DNA of 64,000 nucleotides from Raillietiella orientalis. Lineage: Eukaryota. Location: the NCBI GenBank assembly GCA_036172245.1, contig JAYWIR010000072.1:1-64000 (forward strand), in the 5' to 3' direction. Position 1 is the stretch's first letter. Every line of letters starts with the position of its first letter. Below the pieces are notes generated by a model. That model was given only the letters and a program-made list of their open reading frames with translations, was not told where the DNA came from and ran no database searches. Position numbers and translations under genes: made by a program. This document shows, piece after piece, positions 1-21,635 of the stretch.

Positions 1-2395
1 CGTCTTATCACAGTAGTGAATGCGGACGCAAAGTTGTAATCCAAGTTGTGGGCTGAGCGTTTGGGTCGGGTGGCCGCTTCCGTGGTGAGTCCCGAGCAGA
101 CCTACGCTGTTCCCGGACGAACCATGGAGGCCAACCTGCTCCTCGCCAGCTCATGGTGGCAGTTGCGACAACGCGTTGCACAGGATGGTCAAGGGAGCCT
201 CGCACTCCCCTCTGACCAAGAAGATCAAGCAGAGGGTGGGATGGACTCGGCGGGAGCCTTCACCGTCGCGGTCGATTTCCACAAAGCATTCGACTGTGTC
301 GATCAGGATCTCCTTTTCGAGCTCCTGGAACGCATGGGTTTGCCGGCCGTGCTCCAGTCTAACCTGCGATCCTGCTGGCGCAACGCGTATATCAATATTG
401 GTTCCAGCGGCCGGCACGTGTACGGCGTGCCAGTGCGACGCGGCATCCGGCAGGGTGACAGCCTGAGCCCCATGCTCTTTAGCATCTACTTTGCGTTGGT
501 GCTAAGGGCATACAGGGTAACTCTGGCAACTCTGCCGAGCTCGTGTGCCGGCACACCTGTTGTGTCGGCCTATGCAGACGATCTTCTGCTGCTGCTTCCC
601 GGGTCCATCCCGGCGAGTGCGCTCGAGGAATTCTTCGAGTTGCTGCGCCGTGGGACGGGCCTGGAGGTGAACAGGGCGAAGTCGTCTATGGTGTTTGTTG
701 GCTCGGCGTGGGCTGAACGGTCGGACTGGATCCGCTTTGATATCCCCACGGGCAGGTGCTTCAAGTTCCTTGACGTTCCGTTGAAGAACTTCTGCGTAGC
801 GGAAGTCTGGTCCGACCGTCTCTAAAAGGCAGCGTTGGCGATCGGTCCGTTCCAAGATAGCAAGTTCTACTTGCAGGAACAAGCCGCGGTGTGGAACACG
901 TTTCCGGCTTCCCTTCTTCGCTCCCTACTTCTTGTGTGCCCCGCCTTCTATTTTATATGAAAAAGAGCAACGGGCATCTTAAGGACAGTCCTTTGGGGCA
1001 AAGGGAGGTCCCGTGTGAGGCTCAAAGACTTGTGCGCTCCACGTAAGGACGGAGGACTTGGCATACTTACGCTGGAGCGCATTAAATTACAACTCCGCTT
1101 TAGGACTCTATCTCTGGCGGCAGAATTGTGGGACACGCCTTGGTGCATTCCAGCACGCCTCCTGGCCCAACGAGCCTGCGGATTGGATGGACTGTTGTCG
1201 TTTCTACTGGCGCGCGATCGCAGAGAAGCACACGGCGGCTGTCTCCTGCGTCTCATGTGCGTTGTGGTAAGGGAGAACGCCTGGATCTCCTGCCTCCCAG
1301 GTAACTACTCTGCATGGCTGCACGATACAGTGTCCACCTGTGTAAAGATCCACGTTCCGGCGGGCACAAGAAACACTTGCCTAAAAAGGGACGCCCGCTG
1401 CAAACTGCAGGAGATCATGCAGTCCCACGATAAACTTATGTGGGCCCTGATAACCCCCCTTGCCCCAGTGCTGCCCTTCTTAATAAACGCCAGGGACAGT
1501 AGGAAGCTGGGGAAATGAACCGTGTCCTGCACCATTGGCGGCAGGACACAAACGATTAAGGCGTGGACATCTCGGCAGCTAGCGGACGCTGCGACACCGA
1601 GTGTCCCGCTCAACGGAATTCGACGCTGGGGCGAGCTACTCGGACTATCTCCGGAGGAGATGAAGTGGCCTCCAGAGTCCTGGAACAGTGCATTTCTCCC
1701 CCTTAAATGGTAGGAGGTGGCGTTGCTTGTAATACATTGGGGCTTACCCTGTAAAGTACGCCTGTATCACTCAACCCGAGGAGCCGTGGATCCCCAGTGC
1801 GACCGGTGCGGGGAAAAAGAGACCTTTCCCCACCTTCTACGGGAGTGGGGTGCCATACGCCCTTCATGGGATCGCCTTGCGGCGATCCTGGATTTGCGCG
1901 GATGTGGCCCTAAGGACGTTATTAGGCGCCTCTTCTGTAGTGACGCCTTGTCCCCTCCCGCTTATGTAGCAGTCCTCTGCTGCATTCGAGGGATCGTGGA
2001 GGCTTGGAGCGCTACCAGAAGAAGACGTCAGCCAACTGGCAACGCCTCACGTTTCACTCGCCTATTCTTGCGAGCTGTTTGCAAGTGGCGCCAGTTAGGC
2101 GCAGAGAGGACTAAGCTTTTCCGTATCCTTAATAGGATCTAGAGGACCTATCCTCGCGCACAGTGATCTCTTCCCTGTCCTCCCACCCCTGAAACATTTG
2201 TTCCCTCGCACATTTCAGCTTTTTGTTTGTTTTTGTTTTTTCTTTCCCAACCCCCGCGCATTGGAAGGACCTCGCCGGCATAGTGTCGGCAGCCAGCAAG
2301 CTGTTTTGATGTGGTGAAACCTCGGGTTCTCCACTCCATAATGTATTGCGCTTTTGTTTATTTTAAATGAATGCCCCCGCATATCCGGGCGAAAA
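1..2395 (+). mobile_element. L1/Tx1-like LINE (subfamily A): decayed ORF2 from RT to C-terminal Zn finger, plus 3' UTR; 5' part outside window
   Basis: RT motifs VDFHKAFDCVD, RGIRQGDSLSP, AYADD (46-825); CDRCGEKETFPHLL finger (~1800-1840); several in-frame stops; family 3' end ...catatccgggcgaaaa at 2395. Confidence 0.95.
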
Positions 2396-3370
2396 CTCAC
2401 CCCGGAACTCACAGGTTCTGCACCCGGGCAGGAACACTCCATTACGCGCAGCACGGCGGAGGCCGGTGGCGACCGCGCCCTCCAGCCCGTCGTGCTACTT
2501 ACTGCCCGCTCGCTGGCTGAGGCGAGCAACACGGCCTCGCTTTCCCAGTCGTGATAAGGGCGATCGCGTCTTCTCTTCGTGACGTGCTGTAACGTCAACG
2601 GTCTCCAACACGACGAGAAGAGGCGCTTGTGGCTAACGCTCTGCGCCCCTTCGACTTGACGCTCCTGCAGGAGATTCACTGCATCTCAGAAGAGCAGGCT
2701 GCCGAAATCGAACGGCACGCGGCTGGAAGGCTACATTATAGTTGCGGCGTCGCTTTTCTCCTACGAGGAACTTTGGCCGAAGTGGTGCGCAGCGTTCGTT
2801 TCGACACGGAAGGTCAAGTGGGACAGCTTGTACTCAAGTGGTCAGACTTGGATTGAAAGGATTAAGATTTTCGGTACCGTTCAGAGCCAGTAGATCACTC
2901 GTTCTCACCCTACTGTGGCGCATCTCATTGCGGGAGACTTTAACGTCTACCTGCTGACCGAGAATAGCGCACACAAAAGAGAAAAGTTGCTAGCGGAAGA
3001 GATGTGCGCGTCCGTGCACGCGTGCAACTTGTTCGCTAGCAACCCTGTTATGGCAGCAACGCCGGACTTCGTATACCTTGATGAACACTTGCTATCTCGA
3101 GTAGGTCGGAGAGGTCCCGTACCGTCTGTGTTTTCAGACCACAACAGGCTCGAGTTCGAGTTGCTTCCGCCAGGCAAGGGGCGTCCAATCTGTGTTTTAA
3201 ATATTCCGGCAGACTGGCTAAGACAACCGGAGGAGGCGTAGCATCCTCGCCAGTACCTTTGTAGCTTCGCTATAACTGATCTTTCGGACTGGTACGAACT
3301 AAAAAGATCGGTCCGCAAGTTTTGCTGCCGGTTTCCCTCGCACTAGCTTTCGCGCGGCTTCGGAAAGGGT
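2396..3370 (+). mobile_element. LINE fragment: ORF1 C-terminus plus APE endonuclease domain, interrupted at the GFG site
   Basis: LLQEIH, GVAFLL, IAGDFN, FSDH motifs in ORFs 2629-2856 and 2915-3241. Confidence 0.9.
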
Positions 3371-4706
3371 TTTTCATTCGGGAAAGCCGGGGCTTTTATT
3401 ACTAAAATTTTGACATTACATAATTTTGTAATAAAGTCAATGTTGTTAAAATTTTCGTTTTTACGACGTCAGAAGTTCAGTTCAGAAGTTTAGTAGCACT
3501 TGTCCTTACCGACCCGGAGGCCGATAAGGTCCTTCACTGGCGCCGGGACGAAAAAAATAAAAGAAAACAAAAACAAAAAAAAGAAAAACGCCTGGAGGGC
3601 AAATGTTTTTGAAGTCGGCGCCAACGGCACGCTTTCTCCAAGGAGATCGCTGCCCAGTGAATGGCATTCCGGCTGGTCCTTCCTCTCCTAGACGCGGTCC
3701 ACTTCTCCAGGATACCGCGTATGCAGCAGAGCACTGCTACGCTCCCGGAGGCTGGCAAGCCGTCTCGCGTCAGGAGGCGTCTGAATAAATTTTTCGGGTC
3801 AACCTCCGGAATGTTGAGGATCAACGAGAGTCTGTCATACATTTCGCGGAGGGCAACACACTCCAGAATCAAGTGAGGGAAGGTCTCCCTTTCCCCGCAC
3901 TCTGCACAACTAGCATCCACATTCCCAATTGTCCAGCGAGACAGGCGTGCTCTGCTTAAAAGTCCCCAGTGGAGCAGAAGCAACGCCGTCTCTTGCCACT
4001 GCAGGGGAAGGGTACCGTTGTCCCATCACGCTGGGGGCCACTTCACCTTTTCCAGAGGTATACCGAGCAGCGCGCCCCAGCGTAAAAGTCCGTTCGGCGG
4101 GACACTCGGGGTACTAGCATCCGCTAGTTCCCTCGGCGTGCACGCCTTCAGTGACTTTTTCCTGCCTCCGATGAGGCAGGACACTTTCCACGATGCCTGT
4201 TGGTGGCTGTCCCGAACTTCCCTGAGGGAGGGCAGCACTGAGGCAAGGGGGGTGAAGGAATCCCACAGAAGTTTCCGTGGGTTGGAAGCGATCTCCTGGA
4301 GTGGCTGACCAGCGTGCCTCCCTCTGCGGAGACAGTAGTAGTCCTCATCGCTGGTGCCATTGATCTTCGCCCATGCGGAAACGGACTCCTGAAGCCAGGT
4401 AGTCCAGTCCGCTGGGATGCAGGAGATCCAAGGATTGTCTCTCAGAAGGGCAACCAAATTTCGCAGCTGATATCCACAATGGTTCAGGCTGCGTTCGTTG
4501 GCTACCAGGATTGAAGTCAATCCCAAGCAGCCGGTTAACCTGTGAGCAAGGAGTGTTTCCGGTGCACACCAGGGTGCTGTCCAAAACTTTGCCACAAGGG
4601 CAAGTTTTCTGGATTGAAGCTGTCGCTCAATGCGTTTCAACGTCAGGAGATCAAGTCCACCGTCCCTGCCTGGAGCGCACAAGTCTTTGAGACGGACGAG
4701 GGGCAC
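3371..4706 (-). mobile_element. LINE subfamily B, 5'-truncated (ORF2 C-terminal part plus 3' UTR)
   Basis: DLCAPGRDGGL...HWGL...CAECGERETFPHLILEC; near-identical to 47506-48900. Confidence 0.93.
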
Positions 4707-6508
4707 TCAAGTGGTCCGACTCGATCGATCTTGTTGTAACCAAAGTGTACGCGCCGAGCGGTGCTGGACGAGGGGCCGAAAAGATTGAGTTTTTCGGTAC
4801 CCTTCAAAGCCAGTGGCTGACGGGTCGGACTGCCTTCGGAAGGTAGAGTGTGCACTTCGCATGTTCTCAGGAGGCGAGTTCGTCTTGCCGGAACGGGCCA
4901 GCATCTAGAACGCCTTCGTTGCCAACCTTTTCCGCTCCCTGTATTTTGTTTGTCCACCCCCCCAGGAAGTCAAATTCTGGGCGCAACGCCTTCTACGCAA
5001 AGTGTTGTGGCGCCCTGCAAGATCCCGCGTAAGAATTAAAGACTTGGTGGCGCCGCGTCAGGATATAGGCTTGGGCATCCTAGACTTGCAAAGCATCGAT
5101 CTGCAGGTGCAGTTTCAAATGCTGGGGCTCTGTGCCAAGCTGTGGTGTACGCCGTGGTGCTTACCCGCACGCCTCATACTAAGGCGCTGCACGGGAAGCG
5201 AGGGACTGCTTACGTTGCTGCCCCACTTTCGGCATACCAGAATAGGGTTTGGCTTCCCGCTGAGTCAGATGTCCTCACTGCTGGAAGCCCAATGTTAAAT
5301 CTCCTGCCGCCCCATGAACATTTATGCATCGCGGCAGGAACCTTTTTCATCGTGGGTTGCTTGTCAAGGAACGCGATCGGAAGATCTTCGACGCCTGCGA
5401 CTTTTCCTCAGTCATCCAATGGACGAAGTCATGCAGGACAAGAAGAATACGGATCGTCTGGCCGCTACATTACTCGCCGCAGCTCTGTCTGCCCTCAGGG
5501 TAAGCAACGACAGTTGCCTACCGGCGAAATGGGAGTTCTGCACAATAGCGGGAGTGAGTAAGCTCCTCGGCTGCTGGACGACAAAGGAGCTGGTGGAAAC
5601 TGCCACTCCTCGTAATCGGGCGAAGAGCCTGCTTCGATGGAGTGAGCATTTAATTGTAACCCTTGAAGAGATAGTGCTTTCCTTCGTTTGTTTGGAGAAC
5701 TCCGTGTTCCCGTTAAAGTGGAAACAAGATGTGCTGCACTTTTTACACTGGGGCTTTCACTTTAACCGGCAGAGAAGCATAGTTTCCGGCGAAGCCGCTT
5801 TGCCAAACTGTTTGAGGTGCGGGGAGACTGAGTCTTTTCCGCACCTCTTGCTGGACTGCGGTGATCTCCGTGAACTGTGGTGAAGGCTGATTCCAGCCAT
5901 CCTGCCGCAGGGAGGCACTGCCATTGATGTGTTGCAGCGATTCTTCAGCAGAAATGCATTTTCGGTAGGCGCAATTGTCGCAACCTTGTGTTGTGTTCGC
6001 GCCATCGTGAAGGCCCGCTACGCTCTGGAGTTGTCAGCACAGCAAAGTGAGGCCCACCGGTTTGCCTTAGAATCCATGGAAAAGGCTGCTAGGTGACCTC
6101 ATCTCCGTCACGAGGTTAAAGAGGACATCGCCGGCATCCATCGCCGGTTTACAGGCTCTTAAGAACAGCTTAATCCGGTGATCACTACGTCCTGAAGCCC
6201 ACATACACCACTTCTCCGCTCGCCCTGCTTAAATGCCGGTGACATTACTTTTATCCTTGTGCGAACCAGAGTAATCCCAAAGACCCTTGTTCCGGCGTCC
6301 CCCATTGATTTCTTTTTCTTTTGTTTTTGCTTGTTTGTGTTCCTAGTTTCCACACTCTGTTCCGTGTTATTCTGGCCTGCGTGCCAGCAATTTTCTGATG
6401 ATCCTTGTTCAGTCGTCGATTGGGAGCATGGTTCCTAGCTGGTTTATTTTATATAAGTGTTTTCATTTTTATTATATAAAATAAACGCCCGGAGTGATCG
6501 GGTGAGAA
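4707..6508 (+). mobile_element. LINE subfamily C: short EN piece (4707-4830) fused by internal deletion to post-RT ORF2 and 3' UTR
   Basis: KWSDSIDLVVTKVYAPSG jumps to SDCLRKVE; CLRCGETESFPHLLLDC; 3' end aataaacgcccggagtgatcgggtgagaa. Confidence 0.9.
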
Positions 6509-8423
6509 GTCTCTTGCGCTTGTTCTGCAGAGATCACGTGAATCTCCTGCAGCAGCGCAAGGTCGTAGGGTTCCAGAAGAGCGACCATGTCTCGTCTTCT
6601 GCCGGCGTCTATCTTGTTCACGTTCCAAATGGCGATGCGCAGACGACGGCGGAAGGAGATTCCCGGCATTACTGCTGGCTAGACGAAGGTGTGAGGGAGC
6701 CCGCCTCTTGCAAGAGGGGCGTGATATCCATGGAAGTTTTGGCCTTCTCAGGCACCTGAAACACCTGTTCGGCCTCCACATACTCCATCCCTTCCTTGTC
6801 CGAACATGAGAGTCTCTCGGGCGACGGGTCCCGGGAATTTCCCACGCTCATAGCACACTCGCTTCCGGAAGCCATCTCTTCCCCTTCGTCGGGGAAGACG
6901 ATCTTCCGTAGCTTTGTTGAATTTCGTCCAGCCTTTTTGCGGGGTGCGGTGGAAACGGAGGCTGCGCTTCCAGCCTCCACCTCAGGGTCGGAAGTAGGAG
7001 ACTCCTGAGGGGAGGACGGACACCTTACGGCCTTCCTACTTGCTTCAGAGGGGGCTGGCTGCGACCAGGCAGCCAGCTCCTGCGCCGCACGCGCGAAAGC
7101 TGCGTCATCGATGTTGGTGTCGATGACGGACGCCGCCGCCGGCTCGCTCCCCTCGCTGTTGACAGAGTCAACAGAGGTGTGGTCGTCGGTAGCGGCGAGT
7201 TCTTTCTGGCAGCGTTGGGTAACATCAAGAATGCGTTCCACGACGACGCTGCATTCTTAAATTATCGAGCTACCCTGCTCTTTCTTCTTCTGTTGGTAAT
7301 TTTTTACTCCAATCTTCTCTCCTTTTTGCTTTTTCTTGCCGTTGCCACCTGCCACCTAGGCTCTTGTTTGGTTCCCTCGACTTTATCGGCCTTGATTGCC
7401 GTGGTCTCGAGTGCGCCCTGGGCCTTGGGCGCGGGTGGCACGGCCTTCGCGGCTGCTTTTACCGCCAGCCTTTTCTGCAGCAACCGGGCGCGTTATTCAA
7501 GTTTTCTCTTTGAAACCACCCACACACCTGCTTTGGGGCACACCTCCCCCGTGTGACCCATTGTGCCTTATGCTTTGCACTGCACGTTTGGACACCACTT
7601 TTTGAGGTGGCCCGAGTATTGCAGAATCCGCAGTATTTCGGCTTTCCCATATACCAGAGGTCGACGGTTTCGCCATCGACCACCAGTTTGTGGGGAAGAG
7701 TGCAGCCCTCTTGAACGGTCACGCGTGCAGCCGTGAAGCCGTGCTGCATCCCTGTGTAGTCCTCAAAGGGACTAACTTTCGTCCACAGCGCGTGAACCGT
7801 ATCGTATTGCTCCAACGCGGCGCGAACCTGTTCCTTGCGCATCCGCGCGGTGACGCCTTATAGGTGGACCACCATGCTGCGGTCCACCGTAGTGGGGAGA
7901 AGCCTGCGCGTCCCCATCACCACGAGAGTTTTTAGCTGTGGTTGGGCCAACTTTGCTTGTTTGCAGATGACCTCAACGTACTGACCCCCGCTGCGGATGG
8001 TCATAGCGATGAGCTCCTCCTCCTTAACAACGAGAGCCCGAATCCTTTTCGAAAAAATGCGCGCACTCTCTGAACAGTATAGATTGCCTACTTTGTAGAG
8101 CAATGAGGGTTTAAACCCCTCCTCCAGGTAGGCTGACCATTCCGCAGTGGCTGCAGGCTCTGGCGCCTCCACAACGGTGCTCCACGTTCGCGCTGCAGCG
8201 GCGATCGATTCTTTGGGGGCGGATCCCCCACCTCCATCGTCTCTAAGGACGATGTTGCCGCCGCTTCCTGGCTCTCCATCGCTTCTGGAGGAGGCGCTGT
8301 CACTGCCACCTGGCCTTCCCTGGTGGTCGTTTCAGGCATCGCTGCCTGGTCGACTACCGAACCACACTACGCTTGCACTAAGGGAGACTTTCTGGCACGA
8401 GGAGCACCGAGAAAAGACGTCTG
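6509..8423 (-). mobile_element. LINE 5' half: 5' UTR, ORF1 (gag-like, two CCHC knuckles, frameshifted) and start of ORF2 EN
   Basis: 5' motif cagacgtcttttctc at ~8409-8423; GFKPSLLYKVG, PHKLVVDGETVDLWYMGKPKYCGFC; TAATG overlap at 6669; WNVN...LLQEIH. Confidence 0.92.
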
Positions 8424-8429
8424 CCCTAG

Positions 8430-10562
8430 AGTGCACAAAGTGTTCTACTGCGTAAATTAGGATCTCCTCTTGGAGCACCTGGGTCGCATGGGCTTCCCTC
8501 TTTCCCTACTGACCTTCCTGCGCTCTTGCTGGCGCAATGCGCTATTGAACATCCCTTTCAGAGGTCAAATGGCGTACGGCGTGCCGGTACGGCGAGGCAT
8601 ACAGCAGGGAGATAGCCTCTGTCCCCTGCTCATTAGCACCTACTTTGAGTTGGTGCTAAGAGCTTATAGGGTGACGTTGGCCCCCTTGCCCAACTCGTGG
8701 CCCGGCACGTCCGCCGTAGCAGCCTATGCCGATTATCTTCTGCTCTTTTTGCCGACGTCCACCCTGGCAACGGCTGTCGGGGATTTGTATGATCTGTTTA
8801 GCTGCGGGACCGGATTACATGTGAGCAGAGCGAAGTCGTCAGTGGTGCCAGTTGGTGCGGTGTGGGCAGGGAAGCAGGACTGGGTCCGTTTGGGGATCCC
8901 CATGGCAAGGTTCTTGAAGTACCTTGGCGTTCCTTTGGGAAACTTCTGCGCAGCTGAAACATCGTCTGGCGGTCACCAAAAGTTTGAATTGGCGGTATGC
9001 CCGTTCCTGGATGCAAGTTTTAGTTGCAGGAGCGGGCCATGGTGTAGAACGCCTTTGCGGCCCCCTCCTGTTGCCCCCTACTTCTTGTGTGTGCCGTTCC
9101 TTCTTGAATTAGGACACGGAGAAGGGGCCCCTTACGGAAATCTTTTTGTTGCAACCGGAGTCTTCATGTCCTGCTTCAAGAATTTTGCGCTCTATGCTGT
9201 GACGATGGACTTGATCTTCTCGCGTTGGAGCGCTTGAAACGAAAGCTCCAATTTAGTAAACTTTCCTTTGTGGCAAAGAATAGGCAAGCACTTTGGTATA
9301 TTGCCGCAAAGCCTCTCGCCCACAGGGCAACCCGCTGCTGCGGTTTGACATTAATCCTGGTAACTAACGACCGTACACTGAACCATTGTGGGTTTAAACT
9401 ACGCGATCTGGTCACCCTGGTTAGAGAGAATCCGTGGATCTCCTGTATCCCCGTTGAGTGCATTATTTGGGTACAAGAGTCCGTTTCCGCGTGGGCAAAA
9501 TTCAACGGCTCCAGCGTTGTGGACTTCTCCTGCCTCCGTCGAGACAGGTACAATGGTCAGCCACTGTTGGAGATCATATGCAACCCACGCAAACTTTTGT
9601 GGGCTTCCTCCAACCTCCTTGCTCTTTTGCTGTTCTTCTTCAGGAAAGTCAGTGTCATCCAATAGGAGGCATCGTTGGAAGTGTCGTGCCTCATCGCAGG
9701 CAGCAAAAAACGGATGAAGGCGTGAACGTCTCGGGAACTAGCGGACGCTAGTACCTTGAATGTCCAACCGAATGGACTTGTACGCTGGGGCAACCTGCTC
9801 GACATGGAAAAGGCGAAGTGGCCCTTAGCGTCTTGCGATAACGGCACTTTTCTTCTGCAGTGGCAGGAGACTTCATTGCGGACTTTTAATCAGAACGCAC
9901 CTGTCCCACTGGACATCGGGGTGTGTGGATGCCAACTACGGAGAGTGCGGGAAAAGGGAGACCTTCCTTAACCTAATTCTAGATTCTGTTGTCCTTGGTC
10001 AGATGTTTTTGGATTTACTCTGGTGAGCCCTAACTATTCCGGGGGAAAACCAGAAGAAAATTTTTGGACGCCTGCTGTTGCGGGACTCCATGTCAGCCTC
10101 TGGAGGTGTAGCAGTACTTTTTTGCATGCACGAAATCCTGGATAAGTGGAACGCGTTAAGAAGAGTCCGCACCTGTCGGAATTTTATCCACTGGGCCGCC
10201 ATCTCTTTGGGGATGGCCTTCCGTTGGCGCCGACTTCGAAAACCTTTCAGGCACTTTTTCGCATCCGAAACAGCATGTAAAGACCTTCACACGGCGTACC
10301 GTGCTGCCTTACCTTTTCTCCCCTTCCAAAAACATTGCAATCCTCAGGCGTTTTTTTTTTTTTGGTTTTTGTTTTTGCTGCCCCTGCGTGAGTGTGCAGG
10401 ACCTTATCGGCCTGCTGGTCGATAAGGACAAGTGCGTCCAGACAACGAAACTTCTGTGCTGACCCAAAAAGAAAAATTCAGTTCACATAAAAGAATTTAT
10501 TATGGAATTTTTCTGTGTAAGAAATTTTAATGATAAAAGCTTCGGCTCACCCGGTTGAAAAA
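8430..10562 (+). mobile_element. LINE subfamily B, decayed, from RT motif KAFD to 3' end
   Basis: RRGIQQGDSLCP, AYADY; 3' UTR hairpin ccttatcggcc...ggtcgataagg; terminus cacccggttgaaaaa. Confidence 0.92.
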
Positions 10563-11450: not shown

Positions 11451-11557
11451 GAACAAGATAAATTCACTTAAGAATTTTCTAAATAGAGTGCAATAACTTT
11501 TCATTATCAATGAATGATGTGATCGGATCCTTTAATATAAATGAGGAAACACTTTGC

Positions 11558-12440
11558 TCACTGAGTTGGACTCCTCAATAGAACTACAAAATTTTTATTT
11601 GGGGGAGGTTTCCATCTGCACTTCAGTGTGCTCGGAACATATCCCAGATTTCTTCCAGGGACAAGCCTGAAGCATATTGAAAGTACAATACGTTATCAAG
11701 AGATGCAACACACAAGAAGGACACGTGTATTTGAACTTTCAATGCGTATTTCCCTAAAAGAAAACCTAGCGATGGACGAGTTTTTTTTTCGGGAGTTTTT
11801 TTTTCTTGTGTAACAAGAGCATATAGTAGTGAAATAAATGTCAAAAAATGTGAAATATTTTAAAGACACCTTTCCTACTTTGAGAGAAGAAAAACATTGA
11901 AAGAAAAGTTCCGAAAAAATTCAGGTTTGCATATCCTTCATATTTCAAACGATTCTAATAAGTTGTAACAAAACCAGCCTTTTCCACGGTTTTGAGATAG
12001 GTCTCATCAAAAAAAGGTCAAAAGAGACACTGATGCTTGAAGCACAGCACATTCAAACACATAGCAAAAACTGAACTGTAACGTACCTTCGAGATACAGT
12101 TGCTGAAAGTTGTAGGGAGCAATCCCCATTGAAATCATTTACAAGGAACTCAACCATCATACTTCCATGGAATTCTGGCAACTGAAACCTTGCTAAGTCC
12201 TATTATATTGCAAACGTGGGCTTACAAAAAAAGACAGGGAACACGAGCCACGTTGCAATTGAACTCGCAAGTTATTGAACGACAGTTCACACGTTCCAAA
12301 ATCGTTGGCGAAAGCAGAAATACATGGCCCTCGCTTGTTCGCTAGGCCAATGACGTGTGCGAGCGATCTGAACAATGGAATTGTAGTGTTTTCCGTATCA
12401 GAACATTCTGCAGAAAGGGCAGCAAGCTGAACAGCACAGC
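11558..12440 (-). CDS. Spliced gene A (3' part), unknown Cys-containing protein, paralog of gene B
   Basis: Exons ~12440-12226, 12181-12087, 12035-11975, last exon 11666-11558 (TGA); GT-AG introns of 44 and 51 nt; peptides NTTIPLFRSLAHVIGLANKRGPCISAFANDFGTC, FLVNDFNGDCSL, GRNLGYVPSTLKCRW; one or two middle exons unresolved. Confidence 0.75.
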
Positions 12441-13519
12441 CTACAAAGAAAAAGGATTCGGTGACACTTTATCACCCGAAGGGACACATAGAGTACTAAA
12501 CTTCGCAGTTACGAAAAATGGCTGCAAACAATTTCCTTACAGTCAAAGGAAAGCTTGCGAAAAAAATTCACACAAAAGAAGTGTGTTGAGCTGTATACAC
12601 AGCTAGAACAAAAAGGTTTCCGCACGCCAATCACGGATTTTTGAACAGTAAACTCTTCGATTCGGTTGAGCACCATCTGTCCTCATAGAAAAGTTGCTTT
12701 TTTTCGACACTGTCGTCAAACAGTAAGCTCTCTTAGAATCCTTTTTCACAATAAAAGACTTTAAATATCCTAAGAACATTTCCAGAAAATAAAAACACTA
12801 GCATCAGCCACAACAAAGTGCGCGTAAGTGTTACAAGAACCAAGGCAAAATCAGAAACACAGTATGAAGAAAAGGGAAAGAGTAAAGGAATCATCCCATT
12901 ACAACAGGAATGCACCTCCACGCTAAGCGAAGTGCTTTTGCAAATTGCACGCTCGAGAGACCGAGCGTGTTTCTCCAAAGACAAAATCAAGCACCACTTG
13001 CCTCACAGACGTTCCTTCCATATACAATGAACTGCTTGCATACGGCAGAGAGATGGAAATACGCATCAAACATTGCGTAGAATGCTAGATTGAACATATG
13101 AAGGACTGCACAGTGAGCAAAATCAACTTGACGAAATACATTGCACCAATCAATAGACTAGAAACGCTAACAGAAAAGCGAGCCGTTCTAGGGAACATGC
13201 AACAAAATTCATGGTGCCTCTTAAGAAAACTCTTTCGTTCAGCACCAAAGCTGTATCCATGAAGCAAACTGAGTGAAGGAACAAACGAAACACGCTGCAA
13301 AGAACCTCACTAACCATACACACAGAGAGATGGGGCAAACGCACTGCTATAACAAAGATCCAATTTACGGTCTAAGCACTCTCAAGAAATAAATTCAGAG
13401 CAAAAAAAAACTACACCTTTCCCTAACTTGCGCCTACAAGATTAAGAGTGCCTCAAATAAGGCAACTCCTAACAGAGGGAAGAAAGATTGAAGAAGCTGT
13501 ATGCCGAAATACAGATGAA

Positions 13520-16425
13520 TTTCCTTACAACGGTGAAGAGTAGTCCACACAGCATCCTGCCTTGCGAAACTTCACACGGGATGAGTCCTAATAAGGAATG
13601 CCGCGTTCTAAAGGAATAAACCTCTGTTTCTACAGAAATGCAAACTTGCGCAGACTTCAAACCAATAAGAACCGTGCTCAACACTTGCAACGAGATGAGT
13701 CACACAAGTCAAGCGCCCACAGCTTATGAAATCATTTCACTTCAACACATGTGATTCAAACATCCAGGAATCCCAGCTGTAGGAAAGTTTGCTGCCAGAC
13801 GGAGAAGCAAAGCGGGTGCAGACAGGAAACGACAAGCTGCCTACAGCACATAAAAAAACTGTAATAGCAATTTATCGTTCCATGAGGCCACACGGCAAAG
13901 AACTACATGGAGCTTCTCCGAACGTATTAAACGCTGAGTCTCTGCAACGGTTTCCACTCACGAGACGTGCAAGAAGAAATCAGGTTGCTTCGAAAATGAT
14001 GTCCATGGCAGCGCGATAAATCCGAAACATCCGGTCCACAGCTAGAAAAGGATATGAAAACGGAATAGAAAGCAACCGGAATTCGATGAAGTTTCTCTAA
14101 TTGAATCACATGCAGCTGGATGCAACATACTGGACAGTACGAAGCAAGACGCCGGAAGATGTTCTTCTGCTTGAACATCACGAAAAAGTTATCTAAAACT
14201 CCTATCTAAACACTTATCTGCCTTGCGTTATTCGTTTTGTGTTTCAAGCGCTACTCACCCAATATCACTTAGGTGTGCTACGATGATGCTTAATTTTTTA
14301 TAAGATAGGTAACAAGCGTACCGTTTTTCTCCCAGAATCTCAGCAGCTGCTGCGTGTATGCTCTCACCAGATACATGTCCCGATAGATGCACGAGATAGC
14401 CAAGATACCCTACACATCGCTACCCGGTCATCCAGCACCACTTTGCGGAAATTTTGCGTTGTTGAAGCCGTCATTCGCGGAGCGGTTGTCCTCCAAAGAA
14501 GGTAATGGAAACATAAGTAACATTCGCCATAAACCGTGCCCTTGTTCTCCTTGCTTCCAATCTCTTTGTAGTTTTCCAAGCAGTAAAGGGGCGATAGAAG
14601 AGCCGATAGAAGAGCATCGTGCATTAAGCTGTTAGAAGGTTAGATTCGATTCAGTGTTCAGCCTTCACAGTTTCAGTTCTTACAGCTTCATTGGAGCTCA
14701 TAAATTGAAAGTCTCCTGCATCATCCGAAGAATCAGGAACGACCGTTTCCGGCGGACAAACCGGAATAGAACCCAATGCAGCTTACCAGCGAGAGTTAGC
14801 TCACAGCGTTCAAGTACAAAACAAGAAGCAAGAAGAGTAGTAAAAAAAAAGCAAATGAACATTCACTACAACGGGGGCTTTATCGTAAGTGAATAAACAG
14901 AGGAAAGCAAAGTACTCCTTAACACGCAAATGAACGAGATGCTTCAGCTACGAAGCAGACCACCTGAATGTAGAGTCGAAAGTGCCTGAAGATGCTACTG
15001 CACATACATCGACTCATACATGCAGCGAAAAACTAAAAATGCACCAATCTTTAAAGGGAACGGATCATGATCCGAAAGGCTTCCCTGCATAGGCTAGCAA
15101 CTCTTCTACAGCTGAAGTCTTCTAGGCCGACGACAGTCGCTCATAAGTGGAACGCTGGTTCTTCCTGTTAAAAGAAACTAAAGATTCAAGTGAAAAGGAA
15201 ATGATTGCAAACGAGATTTCTGCTGAACGAGGAGAGACGAGCAAGTTTCGTCGATGACGATCCACCAGCAAAGAGTTTGCATTTCAGCAAAGCGTGGTCA
15301 TAAGAGGTTAATCTCTTAAAACTTAGATGTGATAGTCGCTTGGTGAAACGTTGTAATAAAACTCCTGACGCTAAAAATACACAGGGTTTCCCATGACGGA
15401 GACGGATCCATAGGATGCTTGCTCGAAGGGACAGCAGAGTGACTATTCCATTCTCAACGCTTTCAATGAACAAATTCCTCAATAGACTAATAAATAGCCT
15501 TGGAGTCTAGTAAGATGGAGCAGTGATTTCTGGCGATCTTATTTAGATTGTATTCGCAGTTTTTGTCAAGTGTAACCATACAGCAGAGCGAAGCCGTGCT
15601 GAAGCATTCGGTTTTACTCCCGTCAGCAGGAAAGGTGTAGAAAAAAAGGGAATTTAGATCGTGCCATGTAAAAACAAAGAGTTCGACTGCAACAAAATCT
15701 CGTGATTATTTAGAGTTTCTTCATTTTTGAATCTTTCTTTATTTTTCCCAGCGTATCGCATTGAATAGGCGCGTCGCAACCGAGAAGGGTCCGCAACGCT
15801 CGGCTGCCATGCAGAAATCAACATTCTGAGCAGCCTCACGTCTCAGTTTTGCCTCGCATTCGCGGCACAACTCAAAGGCGTTGCCCAGTGCTGCCAGGAG
15901 GGGAGATGTTGCGAGCTTTAGAAATTTTATCATTCGACTGCATGTCTGCATGGCGTCGCTAAAATTGTCTTGCACAAACTTTCTTACCTTTGTCGTCCAC
16001 GATGGTACCGTACAATCCACGTGAACGGTGTTGCCTCGTTCCATTTTCTCCTCCTGCTTGTCAGTTCTCATTTGTCCACCTGTATCACCCTAATGCTTTC
16101 TCCATAAGGCACCGAGAATTAAGAGCTTTCTATCCTTTCCGTCTGTCTTCTCCTCTGTTTCTTTGTTTGGATTCGAAAAGCAGCATGAAACTCACCCATT
16201 CCAAGCATTCGCAGCATTGGTCGAGAGGGCTGTCCGGAGCATCCCGTCAGGCGTGCCTTTTCGTATTGAATTGTACGCAGCAGACGAAAGATGCGTTCGC
16301 GCTCGCGATCGCCAGGATAAGCACGTGGAGCTGTCTTCATGAGGGATGCCAGAACGGGAAGGATCCAACGCTCCATAGGGATTGCGGTCATCGATGGAAA
16401 GCAGTCTCCTCTCCCGCATGTTTTC
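13520..16425. repeat. Left arm of large inverted duplication (pairs with 17902-20390)
   Basis: Reverse-complement collinearity, e.g. ORF 16119-16391(-) vs 17930-18202(+); 13621-13705 vs 20205-20290; ~14840-15250 is absent from the right arm. Confidence 0.95.
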
Positions 16426-17600
16426 CATACCTTAGGCTCGGTAAGCCAAGTGCAAATACTTTTCTACACTTAAATTTCGAAAGCGTTTTCTTCCATTGTG
16501 AGCGATCAGCGGTTGATAGCGTTTCTTTTTTCAGCAGTAAACAGCTGGAAGGAATTATCCAGGAGCTTTTCGCCCGTAACGTCTTGTCATCTGACGCGGA
16601 GATTTATTCTCTCTTATTCCTCTGTTGGCAGTGAAAGCCGAAGATAGATTCAGAGGCATCCTGCGCGGTATCTTTTTCTGTAGAGGAGCCGTATCGCAAA
16701 AACCTTTTTTCGGACGCAACTAGGAGGAGTTCGCAAAGACGCTTGCGAAAATAGATAGGAAAAAGTCTCAGATTCCATAGGCGCAACTTCTCCTTAAATA
16801 TTGGAAACTATCTGCTTGAGTTCTATTTATTTTTTCTTCCTCTTTATTCCATTTGATTTTTTCTAAATGAGTTGGTTTCTCTGGCGAATGGTTTTCGTCT
16901 GGGAAAATGGTCCGTAGCACGCTCAATCAGCAGAATTGAATTCTGCAGGCGGGAAAAGACCTTTTGATTTTCCTGTTGATTGTTTTTCCTTTACGATTTA
17001 TCTTCCGTTTCCGCAACAACTTCTCTGACCTGACCAAGTAAGAATACGCATTTTGGAGAAAAGTCTCCCCGATCCATCATGATGAATATATTTCCATTGC
17101 GAAGCAATCAAGGCCTATTCGACCTTTTAATAGAGAGTTCTTATGCTTAAATTCCATATGATATTCCTAGAGATCAATTGACTTTGCGAGATGCGGAACA
17201 CGCTGCTTACAGAGGAGTGTCTAGCCAAATTGCATTCTGCGCGCAGGAAGTCATTTGGCAATTCCTCAGAGGACGGAACAACTCACATATGACAGATGCA
17301 CTCACCTCCAGCTGAGATTTAGGGGGAGTGGTGGAAAAGATTAGAAAACCAGCTAATGCTGAAATCACGAATTCATTTTTTTCTTGCCTCTTTCAGTGCC
17401 ACCGCACCTGTGAAAAATCGAAGGTTGTTTGGAATGCACCCTGAGAGTGCAAACACAGATGTGGAGAGGCGTGTGGACTAGAGCATGCAGAAGTTTACAC
17501 TTTTTCCAGCACAGTACGTGATTTTAATCCGAACAGGAGATGAAGCTCATGCTGCCGCAATGCTGTCAACTCCTCGTTTCGGAGGTGAATTCCTTCATGC

Positions 17601-17664
17601 TTAACTCTGTGCCAGGAGTCAACATTTACATAAAGGTGAATGTTGACTCCTGGCACAGAGTTAA
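17601..17664. repeat. Perfect 26-bp inverted repeat with 12-nt loop, bounded by TTAA (MITE-like or hairpin RNA)
   Basis: ttaactctgtgccaggagtcaacatt-tacataaaggtg-aatgttgactcctggcacagagttaa. Confidence 0.95.
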
Positions 17665-17901
17665 TTTAAGGAAATGTTATTTACATAAAGGCAGTAGGAT
17701 GCATTGCTATCTTATGGTTTCCTTTTGAAAGATCAAGCGCTACCAGTGTACCACCTGCAGAAAACCTTTTCTGAGAGCGCCAGGGTACAGATTGCTTTTT
17801 ATCAGTAGAAAACAGTTGCTCAGAAAATTCCCAGTATTCGATTCTTAGCATCCATCACTTGATATGCACAGGAGTTACCCAGGAATCATTCGAATATAAC
17901 A

Positions 17902-20390
17902 AAAAACATGAGCGCACTGCTTTTCCTCGATGACAGCGATCCGTGTGGAGCATTGGAACATTACCGTTCTGTTCTCCCTTCTAAGAAGAGCGCCTCGTGC
18001 GTTGCGAGGCGGTCCGACGCGCGCACGCATCTTTCGTCTGCTGCATACAATTCAATACGAAGAGGCACGCCTGACAGGATGCTCAGGAGAGCCTTCTCGA
18101 CCTATGCTGCGAATGCTTGGAACGGATGAGTTCCATGCTGCTTTTCGAATCCAAACAAAGAAACAGAGGAGAAGGCGGACGGAAAGGATAGAAAGCTCTT
18201 AATTCTCAATACCTTAGGGAGGAAGCATTAGGGCAGTGCGGGTGGGCAAATGAGAAACAACAAGCAGGAGGAGAAAACGGAACGAAGCAACACCGTTCAC
18301 GTGGATTGTACGGTACCATCATGGACGCAAAAGGTAGGAAAGTTTAAGAAGACAATTTTAACGACGCCATGAAAACATGCAGTCGAATCAGAAAATTACT
18401 CAAGCTTGCACCATCTTTCCTCCAGGCAGCACTGGGCAACGCCTTTGAGTTGTGTGCCGCGAATGCGAGGGAAACCTCTGAGACGTGAGGCTGCTCAGAA
18501 TGTTGATTTCTGCATGACAGCCGAGCGTTGCGGACCCTTCTCGGTTGCGACGTGCCTATTCAATGCGATACGCTGGGAAAAATAAGGATTCTAAAATGAA
18601 GAAACTCTAAATGATCACGAGATTTTGCTGCAGTCGAACTTTTTGTTTTTGCATGGCACGATCTAAATTCCCTTTTTTTCTGCACCTTTCCTGCTGGCGG
18701 GAGTAAAACCAGATGCTATAGCGCGGCTTTGCTCTATTGTATGGTTACATTTGACAAGAACTGCGACTCTCATCTCATTGAGATCGGCAGAAATCTCTAA
18801 TTTATCCTACTAGACTCCCATTCTATTTATCAAGGGAGAAATTTGTTTACTGAGGGGGGCAAGGATGGAGGCGCCACGCCACTGTCCCTTCGAGGAGCCA
18901 CACTATGGATGCTTCTCCATCATGAGTGGCGCTGAGTATTTTTAGCGTCAGGAATTTTATTGCAACCATTCTCCAAGCGACCATGACAACTCGATTTTAC
19001 TTGACGAACTCCTTATGAACACGCTTTGCTGTAACTCAAACTCTTTGCTGTTGGATCGTAATGGACGAAGGTAATTATAGTTGCTTCTTGCTTCTTGTTT
19101 TGTACTTTGACGCTGTGAGCTAACGCTCTCTCTAAATTTGCATTGGCTTCTCTTCCGGTTTGTCCGCCTGAAACGGTGGTTTCTGAATCCTCGGTTGATG
19201 CTGGAGACTTTTAATGTGTGGGCTCAAATGATGCTGTAAGAACTGAGAATGTGAAGGCTGAGTTCTAAACAGCCTGCAACCATGTCTAAACTTAAGTGAC
19301 CACGCTCTTCTATCGGCGCATAACTTTTCATTACGGCTTGAAGAACTACACAGGGATTGGTGGCGAGGAGAATGAGCGCCGGGTCATTAGCGAATCTTGC
19401 TGGTGTTTTCGTGATCATCTTCGGAGGACAACCGTTTCGCGCATGACTGCTTTACCAGCACAAAAAATTTCTCAAAGTGGCATTGGATAGCCGGCAGGCG
19501 TTCCAAAGTTTATCTGGACTTTCTCGTGCTTCTCTCAGGCCATGTATATGGCAAGTGTAACCACGCAGTAGGTGCTTGCAGTGGGAACAGCTTCAGAGAT
19601 TCTGCGAGCAAAACGCTACGCTTGTAACCTATCATATAAGAAAGTAAGCGTCATCGTAGCCCATCTGAGTAATATTGGGTGAGCAGCGTTCGAAACACAA
19701 AGCGAAGCACGTAAGGTAAATAAGTGTTTAAATTTTTAGATGACTTTGTCGTGATGTTTGATCTTCTGCCGTCTTGCTTCTCACTCTCCCGTATATTGCA
19801 TCGAGTTGCATGTGATTGCAGCAGAGAAACTTCAACGATTTCCGATGGCTTTCTATTCTTTCTTCACATCCTCCTCTTGTTGTGGACCGAACGTTTCGGA
19901 TTTATCATGCTGCAACACCTTTCTTTTTTTCAGATGGAGATGATTTTCCGAGCAAGTTGATTTCTTTTTGCACGTCTCGTGACTGGAAACTGTTCCAAGA
20001 AGTTAACTTTTAAGACGTTTGGACAAGCTGCGTCAAGTTCTTCGCCGTGTGGTTACATGGAGTGGTAAATCGTTGTTAGTGTTCTCTATTGATGTGCTGT
20101 ATGCAGCTTGTCGTCTCTGCTCTGCACTCTCTTTGCTCCTCCGTTTCGCAGCATACTCTTCTACAGCTGGGATTCCCGGATCTTGGTTTCACGTGTAATG
20201 CATATGTTTGAATCATGTCTTTGCAAGTGTTGACCGCGGTTGTGATTGGTTTGCAGTCTGCGCAATTTCCTATTTGTGCGGAAGCTTGGGAACATCTCGG
20301 TAGATTCCGGCATTTGTTAATAGTACTAATTCTATGTGCACTTATCGGAGGCAAGATGCATTGGAGAATCTGGTTTTTTTCAGTAAGGAT
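17902..20390. repeat. Right arm of large inverted duplication
   Basis: Collinear reverse complement of 13520-16425; similarity is highest near the spacer and decays outward. Confidence 0.95.
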
Positions 20391-20756
20391 GATTGCCGAA
20401 GCAGGAGATGTGATCTATTACTCTCTTCAGCAGGCTTTCCACATTTTGTATTCTAGTGCTCTTTTTGTTGCTTAAGGAGGGATTTTCTAGCTGTTTTTTC
20501 CTTTCTGAAGTAAACATTTCTTCGTAGTATGGCGACTGTAGTTCGGTCTCTGTGAAACCATTTTTTTTTTCTTATTTTCCTTTAGTATAATGTGTTGTCA
20601 CTGTTGTGCATGCTTTTTTGCGTATTTGTTGTATTTCAAGTGAAGTTTTTACTACAGAGAAATTTCTTGCACCAGTTATGCATGTCGGTGTTTTGCTTTC
20701 TTTTCCAATGTTTTTTAGCCTTTTATAATGTCACTTAATTTTTTTTTTAATTTTAG

Positions 20757-21635
20757 ATTATCACTGTTGTTATGTACGGTAATACACCAAGTGACTGTGC
20801 TTGTCTCAGTAAGAACGTAACTCTGAATACGGATAGATTGATAGTGGATCTACTGTTGTTTACACGTGAGGATGGACCTTGTGTTCTCCTTTTCGACAAC
20901 ACTCTTACAAACTGCCAAATGATATATACTAATCGATTTGCTCGAACAGTTGCAAATAATTGCAGGCTGGACATCGACGTAAGTGAAGTGTACTTAGACA
21001 CCTGGTATTATGATGTCCCTAGGCGCAAGGAACTTATCCTTCGGAGTACATTAATTTTCTTCTTGAAGGTCCAGATGGTTCTTGTACCTTACACTACCCA
21101 GATAGAACTGTAACGTAAGTATTCTTTTAGATTTTCGGTTGGTTCTCGAGATGCTTTGTGTCCAGCATTTTGAGCCATGAGTATATATTTCATGTTTCCA
21201 TTCATTATGACGCATGGTGTGTGACAGTACGTACCAAATATCGTACTTACACATGTTGAATTTGAGGAATGTGTGAGGAAAGAAAGCATTTTTCTCCGTA
21301 AGAAAGCACTCCATTTCTTCGCAAGTTCCTTCTCAGATCATCCATAATTTCTGTTGTATGGGGTTGTGGTGATTCGTGTTTCTCTCGACTTCTTTTTGTT
21401 GCAGTCTTTCTGAATTCTATTGATACAACCCCTATTAGAATTGCTTGTGAGCTGTCTTTATTGAATGTGTTTTCGGATATCGATGTAGAGTATCGAATTT
21501 CCTGAAAAAAGTGATTCTCAAAAATTTTTCAGATTGAGCACAGGCCGTAATATTCAGGCAGTTCCGACCAGCCTAAGATGCAGTTGGCCCTCAGGAACAG
21601 GTGTGACGGTGAAGTTGAAGGGACAAACTGATTAA
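20757..21635 (+). CDS. Spliced gene B (3' part), unknown Cys-containing protein, paralog of gene A
   Basis: Exons 20757-20978, 21023-21114, 21166-21226, last exon 21533-21635 (TAA); introns of 44 and 51 nt; peptides NVTLNTDRLIVDLLLFTREDGPCVLLFDNTLTNC, FLLEGPDGSCTL, GRNIQAVPTSLRCSW. Confidence 0.78.

What the first reader, a model, noticed from the sequence alone, without database searches (positions are those of the whole stretch)
11558..21635. Hidden divergent paralog pair with identical intron lengths but highly diverged proteins
The pair is not visible in the ORF track. Gene A(-) and gene B(+) share a 44-nt phase-0 intron, a 51-nt phase-2 intron, a 61-nt exon and a phase-2 last exon. Aligned residues: NTT/NVT sequon 23 aa before the end of GPC; GPCISAFANDFGTC vs GPCVLLFDNTLTNC; CSLSFF| vs CRLDID|; FLVNDFNGDCSL vs FLLEGPDGSCTL; F8 and W17 of the 61-nt exon; GRNLGYVPSTLKCRW vs GRNIQAVPTSLRCSW. 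Identity is low (roughly a quarter by eye) and concentrated on Cys/Gly/Trp. I do not recognise the family. Inference: a fast-evolving disulfide-bonded extracellular glycoprotein pair, possibly recognition or effector-like, isolated in a retrotransposon sea.
Basis: partly seen in the sequence, partly recalled or inferred. Interest (0 to 1): 0.7.

Follow-up and report, generated by a model that had tools for sequence, protein, structure and literature searches.

The report
Amplified head-to-head orphan secreted gene pair
Two back-to-back genes for small secreted proteins with no known relatives form a fixed A-plus-B unit that this arthropod genome has copied about twenty times, often keeping the two genes' control regions nearly identical while the proteins stay very different, which suggests the two work as a team.

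Summary
The pair is real, but it is neither isolated nor five-exon. A and B are homologous four-exon genes for about 147-aa secreted proteins, 23% identical, with five invariant cysteines. The 44-nt intron holds. The 51-nt intron and 61-nt exon do not: both sites are present in 3 of 30 copies, and including the piece throws the conserved last exon out of frame. The host is an arthropod. Its assembly holds 24 head-to-head arrangements, all A+B, plus 13 singles; some are probably haplotigs. Mature proteins group by type and give mirror trees. Promoter plus exon 1 group by cassette (up to 100% identical, ending 53-224 nt before exon 2), and the spacer occurs in both orientations. Sequence, profile and partial-fold searches found no family. 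Best reading (0.45): co-expressed, co-secreted partners, perhaps a disulfide-linked heterodimer, amplified as a unit like silkmoth chorion A/B pairs. Passive linkage is a close rival (0.35). The window's A copy is frameshifted. Expression, fold and binding are untested. The scan noted a similar pair (probably this family) and many converting palindromes elsewhere in this genome.

The parts
11558..11666 (-). Gene A exon 4 (phase 2, G.N..VP..L.C.W, stop)
   Evidence: conserved in paralogs
11667..12086 (-).
12087..12181 (-). Gene A exon 3, 95 nt
12182..12225 (-). Gene A intron 2, 44 nt, phase 0
12226..12440 (-). Gene A exon 2: 215 nt against 216 in near-identical copies, a 1-nt frameshift near its start (pseudogene, assembly error, or use of a second AG at 12427)
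12441..13528 (-). Gene A intron 1, 1088 nt
13529..13555 (-). Gene A exon 1, coding part: 9 codons, start of the signal peptide, GTAAG donor
13646..13702 (-). Conserved promoter block of A (CAAGTG box and reverse CCAAT; other subfamilies have a TATAAA just after it, this one does not)
   Evidence: reading it as a promoter is inference
13552..14835 (.). Outer inverted arm, A side; 72% to 19084-20359
15247..16405 (.). Inner inverted arm, A side; 84% to 17916-19069; DNA search matches only cassette loci
16406..17915 (.). Central spacer, 1.5 kb; matches only cassette loci; spacers of other cassettes occur in both orientations
17601..17664 (.). Near-perfect 29-bp hairpin in the spacer (z -14.6); only sub-threshold miRNA matches
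17916..19069 (.). Inner inverted arm, B side
19084..20359 (.). Outer inverted arm, B side, with the promoter block at 20207-20267
20356..20382 (+). Gene B exon 1, coding part (9 codons)
20383..20756 (+). Gene B intron 1, 374 nt
20757..20978 (+). Gene B exon 2, 222 nt, phase 0
20979..21022 (+). Gene B intron 2, 44 nt
21023..21114 (+). Gene B exon 3, 92 nt
21115..21532 (+). Gene B intron 3, 418 nt (contains the rejected 61-nt piece, 21166-21226)
21533..21635 (+). Gene B exon 4; intact 147-aa model

Best explanation
One old inverted duplication of a small secreted-protein gene produced an A/B head-to-head cassette of about 10 kb.

SHOWN: the cassette has been copied as a unit, mostly into LINE-rich regions. 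Gene conversion or crossover between the arms repeatedly makes promoter, exon 1 and most of intron 1 alike within a cassette. The exons for the mature protein stay A or B and evolve fast around a five-cysteine core.

INFERRED: identical promoters and signal-peptide starts make A and B co-expressed and co-secreted by the same cells. They act as a two-subunit unit, most likely a heterodimer: the odd core cysteine could form an inter-chain disulfide, and A is usually basic while B is neutral or acidic. The unit would work at an extracellular interface that favours variety (reproductive secretion, coat or recognition). The window's copy belongs to a subfamily where promoter conversion has lapsed, and its A gene is frameshifted.
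For: - 24 of 24 head-to-head arrangements are A+B; none is A+A or B+B.
- Mature-protein tree of 29 rows: one A/B split, support 97/92. The A and B distance matrices of 14 cassettes mirror each other, Mantel r 0.92, 0 of 2000 permutations as high.
- Promoter plus exon 1 tree of 28 rows: 9 label changes, no fewer than shuffled labels; A and B are sisters within 8 cassettes.
- Arms reach 99.6% over 1.5 kb, 97.5% over 3.8 kb and 96.8% over 4.2 kb.
- Identity ends 53-224 nt before the approximate exon-2 acceptor in 8 of 13 cassettes tested. A-vs-B intron 3 identity (0.56-0.67) is at shuffle level (mean 0.59, max 0.67).
- Type-specific residues persist across the deepest split.
- Five core Cys; A is more basic than B in 8 of 10 cassettes with both models.
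- Precedents: chorion A/B pairs (PMC4639761) and the disulfide-linked SIX8-PSL1 pair (PMC10942635).
Against: - No expression, fold or binding data.
- Mirror trees follow from linkage alone.
- One partner is broken or deleted in at least 8 of 24 arrangements (window, C72b, C72c, C94a, C53a, C91, C105, C84), often with the other intact, and there are 13 singles.
- Conversion has retreated to exon 1 in 5 of 13 cassettes tested.
- Unchecked scan notes describe converting palindromic pairs in many unrelated families of this genome, so the arms need no family-specific explanation.
- The AU test does not reject an independent origin of the deepest subfamily's pair (p=0.10), and warns that long branches meet.
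- The deep B subtype has six mature Cys, and signal cleavage sites are unknown, so odd parity is uncertain.
Confidence: 0.45

Rival explanations
1. Passive linkage. A and B are independent secreted paralogs that travel together only because they lie 6-10 kb apart in duplication-prone LINE-rich DNA. Arm homogenisation is this genome's general habit and stops at exon 2 because homology has decayed there.
For: Many broken partners and singles. Conversion has lapsed in the window's subfamily. Scan notes of similar palindromes in trypsin-, pepsin-, myosin-tail- and membrane-gene pairs (unchecked).
Against: Both types are kept in every subfamily, across divergences of up to 70-76%. No A/A or B/B pair in 24, although tracts run to within about 60 nt of exon 2 in several cassettes.
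Confidence: 0.35
2. Flip-flop switch. Recombination between the arms inverts the central spacer, and its orientation decides whether A or B is expressed.
For: The spacer lies in one orientation in C108 and C91 and in the opposite one in C210, C111 and C105. One near relative of the window (C94a) has an inverted centre with deletions.
Against: The genes lie outside the invertible part and each has its own promoter and exon 1. In the Ogataea system the genes lie inside the inverted segment and one end is silenced (PMC5720833). Occasional crossover in any palindrome gives such flips. The window's arms are only 72-84% alike.
Confidence: 0.07
3. Two-component secretion aimed at another organism (venom, salivary or host-directed factor), with paralogous subunits.
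For: Secreted, Cys-stabilised, amplified, with a positively selected class in A. Paralogous two-subunit toxins exist (recalled, no call).
Against: No family, PDB or fold match. The host's way of life is unknown.
Confidence: 0.08
4. Selfish toxin-antidote or drive cassette spreading in LINE-rich DNA.
For: Paired amplification, rapid evolution, frequent decay, LINE-rich setting.
Against: Both products are secreted paralogs with the same promoter, whereas drive pairs usually need different timing (general knowledge). No terminal repeats bound the cassette in the window's self-comparison.
Confidence: 0.05

Closest known systems
Silkmoth chorion A/B gene pairs (Bombyx mori; PMC4639761, passages read)
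   Same: Two old branches of one secreted superfamily, strictly head-to-head, amplified as pairs (44 pairs), with a short first exon, gene conversion, and some pseudogenes and unpaired genes.
   Different: Chorion pairs share one bidirectional promoter of about 330 nt and cluster at one locus, with similarity running between pairs. Here each gene has its own promoter on kb-long inverted arms, similarity runs A-to-B within a cassette, cassettes lie on many contigs, and the proteins showed no match to any Pfam family.
Palindromic duplicates under arm-to-arm conversion; 'peak of divergence' model (PMC3924837, passages read)
   Same: Near-identical tracts end sharply next to anciently diverged coding sequence.
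   Different: The whole mature gene, downstream introns included, is outside the tract, and the palindrome itself is the amplified unit.
Fusarium SIX8-PSL1 and Avr2-SIX5 pairs (PMC10942635, passages read)
   Same: Divergently transcribed small secreted Cys proteins that work as a pair; SIX8-PSL1 is a disulfide-linked heterodimer.
   Different: Those partners come from two structural families and share a promoter. Here they are paralogs in an animal and binding is not shown. This is an analogy only.
Drosophila glue genes Sgs7/Sgs8 (PMC10835880, passages read)
   Same: Small, fast-evolving secreted arthropod genes with a 28-bp first coding exon, with inversions, duplications and conversion.
   Different: There conversion blurs the coding identities and copy numbers are 0-3. 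Here A and B stay distinct over about 20 cassettes.
Ogataea flip/flop mating-type switch (PMC5720833, passages read)
   Same: Kb-long inverted repeats around a segment found in both orientations.
   Different: There the genes are inside the inverted segment next to a silencing centromere. Here they are outside, each with its own promoter.

Membership tests
Chorion-type A/B paired multigene family (architecture) | Two old paralog branches, paired head-to-head and amplified as pairs | tested here: met
   24 of 24 arrangements A+B; trees
Chorion-type A/B paired multigene family (architecture) | One short shared bidirectional promoter | tested here: not met
   Separate promoter blocks 6-9 kb apart on inverted arms
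Chorion-type A/B paired multigene family (architecture) | Co-expression of the two partners | not testable with these tools
   No RNA holder was listed
Any Pfam family | Profile match | tested here: not met
   0 families for the two window exons; 4 of 29 members had one weak hit each, to four different families, E 0.04-0.33. Exon 2 only.
Known fold (PDB) | Structural match of the domain | tested here: inconclusive
   A 61-aa exon-2 model (pLDDT 67, four strands) gave no match in VIA-wide or Foldseek. It covers half the domain; the spliced domain could not be folded.
Converting palindromic duplicates | Arms group by locus, coding regions by type, with a sharp boundary | tested here: met
   Met in 8 of 13 cassettes; the tract ends at or before exon 1 in the other 5, the window among them.
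Flip/flop switch | Alternative genes inside the invertible segment, one of them silenced | tested here: not met
   Genes lie outside the arms
Flip/flop switch | Both orientations at one locus within an individual | not testable with these tools
   No reads available; both orientations were seen only between cassettes
Disulfide-linked heterodimer pair (SIX8-PSL1-like) | Unpaired cysteine in each partner | tested here: inconclusive
   Five core Cys in both types; extra Cys near the cleavage site in B, and a sixth in the deep B subtype
Disulfide-linked heterodimer pair (SIX8-PSL1-like) | Physical A-B complex | not tested
   Only exon fragments could be submitted, so no complex job was sent
Secreted protein | N-terminal signal peptide, no membrane anchor | tested here: met
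   Hydropathy peak starts at residues 1-12 in 25 of 25 full models; hydropathy only, no SignalP

The most novel reading that the evidence does not exclude
A previously undescribed arthropod family of obligate two-subunit secreted proteins, possibly of a new beta fold. Its 1:1 co-expression would be enforced not by a shared promoter but by continual arm-to-arm copying of promoter and signal-peptide exon, with selection holding the conversion boundary just before the mature protein. About twenty diversified cassettes would then supply a repertoire of A-B heterodimers, perhaps combinatorial.
Probability: 0.25. Interest if true: 0.7.

Novelty: new variant of a known kind. Interest (0 to 1): 0.48.

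Why it matters
It is an orphan secreted family with no relative in 1.84 billion representative proteins (exon-2 profile). It is also a naturally replicated experiment: about twenty copies of one palindromic cassette at different stages of promoter homogenisation (68-100%). That makes it directly testable whether conversion of regulatory DNA keeps two diverged partners co-expressed. Paired amplification and conversion boundaries are each known, and this genome seems rich in converting palindromes, which limits the surprise.

Tried and rejected
Searches that found nothing:
- RNA: no RNA holder was listed for 11500-13500; this is no evidence either way.
- Homologs: the word-index search with B exon 2 and with the 29-row exon-2 alignment (longer proteins only) found none. 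The HMM search of 1.84 billion representatives gave 4 hits, all tandem-repeat artefacts on inspection. PDB sequences 0. Metagenome contigs: 537 pattern hits, 0 confirmed. ESM Atlas gave nothing at 0.8 or above.
- Fold searches with the half-domain model: 0 matches.
- Literature: searches returned no paper on this architecture by title or abstract start (one search had 0 papers). The library lacks most subscription journals. No supplements were read.

Ideas rejected or left weak:
- Nematode host, my first guess from TTTCAG acceptors. The SL1 search was blank, and its control did not ring either. A TTAGG array (172 overlapping matches, control 0) and an animal-type actin point to an arthropod; reading TTAGG as the arthropod telomere repeat is recalled knowledge.
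- Coding arms: no conserved frames among cassettes. The 223-aa ORF at 15963-16634 is interrupted by stops in the mirror arm and has no Pfam match.
- Arms or spacer as a dispersed transposon: matches only at cassette loci (the tool warns that common words are skipped).
- Internal repeat between the exon-2 and exon-3 hairpins: probability 7.6%, not claimed.
- Resemblances to CUB, PAN, TIMP, ML/NPC2 and cystine knots were judged from recalled cysteine spacings only; none fitted.
- My first site-model run was poorly optimised and overstated the signal; one search replaces it.
- No in-frame or intronless copy was found among the 47 modelled loci, so the whole domain could not be folded.

Full report
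OBSERVATION. The quoted motifs are in the sequence at the stated places. The span 11558-21635 runs from A's stop to B's stop. The cassette is 35-47% GC inside LINE-derived DNA of mostly 51-63% GC. The host is an animal with a long TTAGG array, read as an arthropod (the motif's meaning is recalled). Unchecked scan notes call it crustacean-like.

GENE MODEL. Searches of the own genome gave 40 matches for B exon 2, 32 for A exon 2 and 23 for B exon 4. Of 49 distinct fetched loci, 47 were modelled, and 43 have intact exons 2 and 3. One of the two unmodelled loci proved intact later. The structure is constant: exon 1 of 24-27 coding nt, exon 2 of about 216-222 nt (225-237 in a few copies that lost the usual acceptor), intron 2 of 43-44 nt, exon 3 of 92-95 nt, intron 3 of about 390-500 nt, and exon 4 of about 33 codons. 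A conserved block with CAAGTG, ATTGG and, outside the window's subfamily, TATAAA lies upstream of the ATG. Full models are 142-165 aa with an N-terminal hydrophobic peak (25 of 30 could be built).

The 51-nt intron and 61-nt exon fail. Both splice sites are present in 3 of 30 copies. Exon 3 ends in phase 2 and exon 4 starts in phase 2, so a 61-nt insert destroys the conserved last exon. Window A has a 1-nt frameshift near the start of exon 2 relative to copies 99% identical in that exon. B is intact.

CASSETTE CENSUS. Combining, I count 24 head-to-head arrangements, all A+B. In 4 of them one partner is partly deleted, and 2 are stretched to 20-25 kb. There are also 13 singles, 3 of them at contig ends; one single (C93) is of unclear type. 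Several copies are near-identical (C33a/C94, C111 twice, C54/C84) and may be haplotigs, so about 20 distinct cassettes is safer. Of 14 cassette regions tested, 11 have flanks matching the window's LINEs.

ARMS AND SPACER. In the window the upstream regions form inverted arms of 72% and 84%. Elsewhere they reach 96-99.6% over 1.5-4.2 kb. Identity falls abruptly 53-224 nt before the approximate exon-2 acceptor in 8 of 13 cassettes. In the other 5 (two deep ones and three of the window's subfamily) it ends at or before exon 1. Mature proteins split once into A and B (97/92, with a long-branch warning; 29 rows, one frameshifted copy left out). Promoter plus exon 1 (28 rows, two without a called exon 1 left out) show 9 changes, as many as shuffled labels. 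An independent origin of the deepest subfamily's pair is not rejected (AU p=0.10). The spacer lies one way in C108 and C91 and the other way in C210, C111 and C105, so crossovers have occurred. The genes are outside the flipping part.

PROTEINS. A and B are 21-30% identical within 12 cassettes and clearly homologous. Five Cys, G-x-C, L..G.N and P..L.C are shared, and each type has its own fixed residues. Pairwise dN/dS has medians of 0.73 (A, 21 pairs) and 0.77 (B, 26 pairs). My own codon models give 0.59 and 0.47, with about 8% of A sites at omega 3.2 (p=0.0002) and no significant class in B. These use fixed branch proportions and include one broken copy per set, and conversion among paralogs can inflate such tests. 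The exon-2 model is four beta strands at modest confidence. No family, homolog or fold was found; all these searches used exon 2 only.

MECHANISM. Shown: paired amplification, arm homogenisation, spacer inversion, and fast evolution around a Cys core. Inferred: co-expression and a two-subunit secreted unit (0.45), from strict A+B pairing, long retention of both types, odd core cysteines and a charge difference in 8 of 10 cassettes. Against it: at least 8 of 24 arrangements have a broken partner, there are 13 singles, conversion has lapsed in some lineages, and unchecked notes show converting palindromes in many families of this genome. Passive linkage therefore stays close (0.35). A switch (0.07), an outward-directed two-component factor (0.08) and a selfish pair (0.05) are weaker.

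COMPARISON. It works like silkmoth chorion A/B pairs (PMC4639761, passages) but lacks their single short promoter. It fits the conversion-boundary model (PMC3924837, passages). It resembles SIX8-PSL1 (PMC10942635, passages) and Sgs7/Sgs8 (PMC10835880, passages) by analogy only, and fails the Ogataea switch test (PMC5720833, passages). Four searches listed no paper on this combination; I saw those only as listings.

VERDICT. New variant of a known kind; interest 0.48.

Noticed in passing
window 17601-17664: Near-perfect 29-bp hairpin in the spacer (z -14.6), also present in the C72b copy; Rfam miRNA matches are far below threshold.
   Followed up: partly
window 13670-13690 and 20240-20280: The window's subfamily (window, C33, C53, C204) lacks the TATAAA found in the C108/C210/C91/C111/C26 promoters, and is also a group in which promoter conversion lapsed.
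   Followed up: partly
L081 (G000:C94:64500-74499): Close relative of the window's cassette with the centre inverted and most of B deleted; A is broken too.
   Followed up: partly
L075-L078 (G000:C72:272500-309000): Two more 96-98% copies of the window's cassette and flanking LINEs on the same contig, each with internal deletions: recent segmental duplication or assembly redundancy.
   Followed up: partly
L042, L043, L045, L046: Deep A-type copies appear to have lost the usual exon-2 acceptor; an in-frame AG slightly upstream would add about five hydrophobic residues to the signal peptide.
   Followed up: no
L071 (G000:C9:4489810-4493580): The cytoplasmic actin gene sits in very GC-rich, homopolymer-rich DNA, unlike the AT-richer cassettes: strong compositional compartments in this genome.
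   Followed up: no
G000:C13:4486415 onward: Long TTAGG array, with most of the listed matches on this contig.
   Followed up: no
window 1-10500 and 22300-64000: Dense nest of mutually inserted LINE fragments (CCHC, endonuclease, RT, zf-RVT), mostly 65-90% alike.
   Followed up: no
L100 (G000:C93:31000-31300): A divergent family member only 47% identical to the nearest A type, with no partner within the 15 kb fetched; possibly a third type.
   Followed up: no
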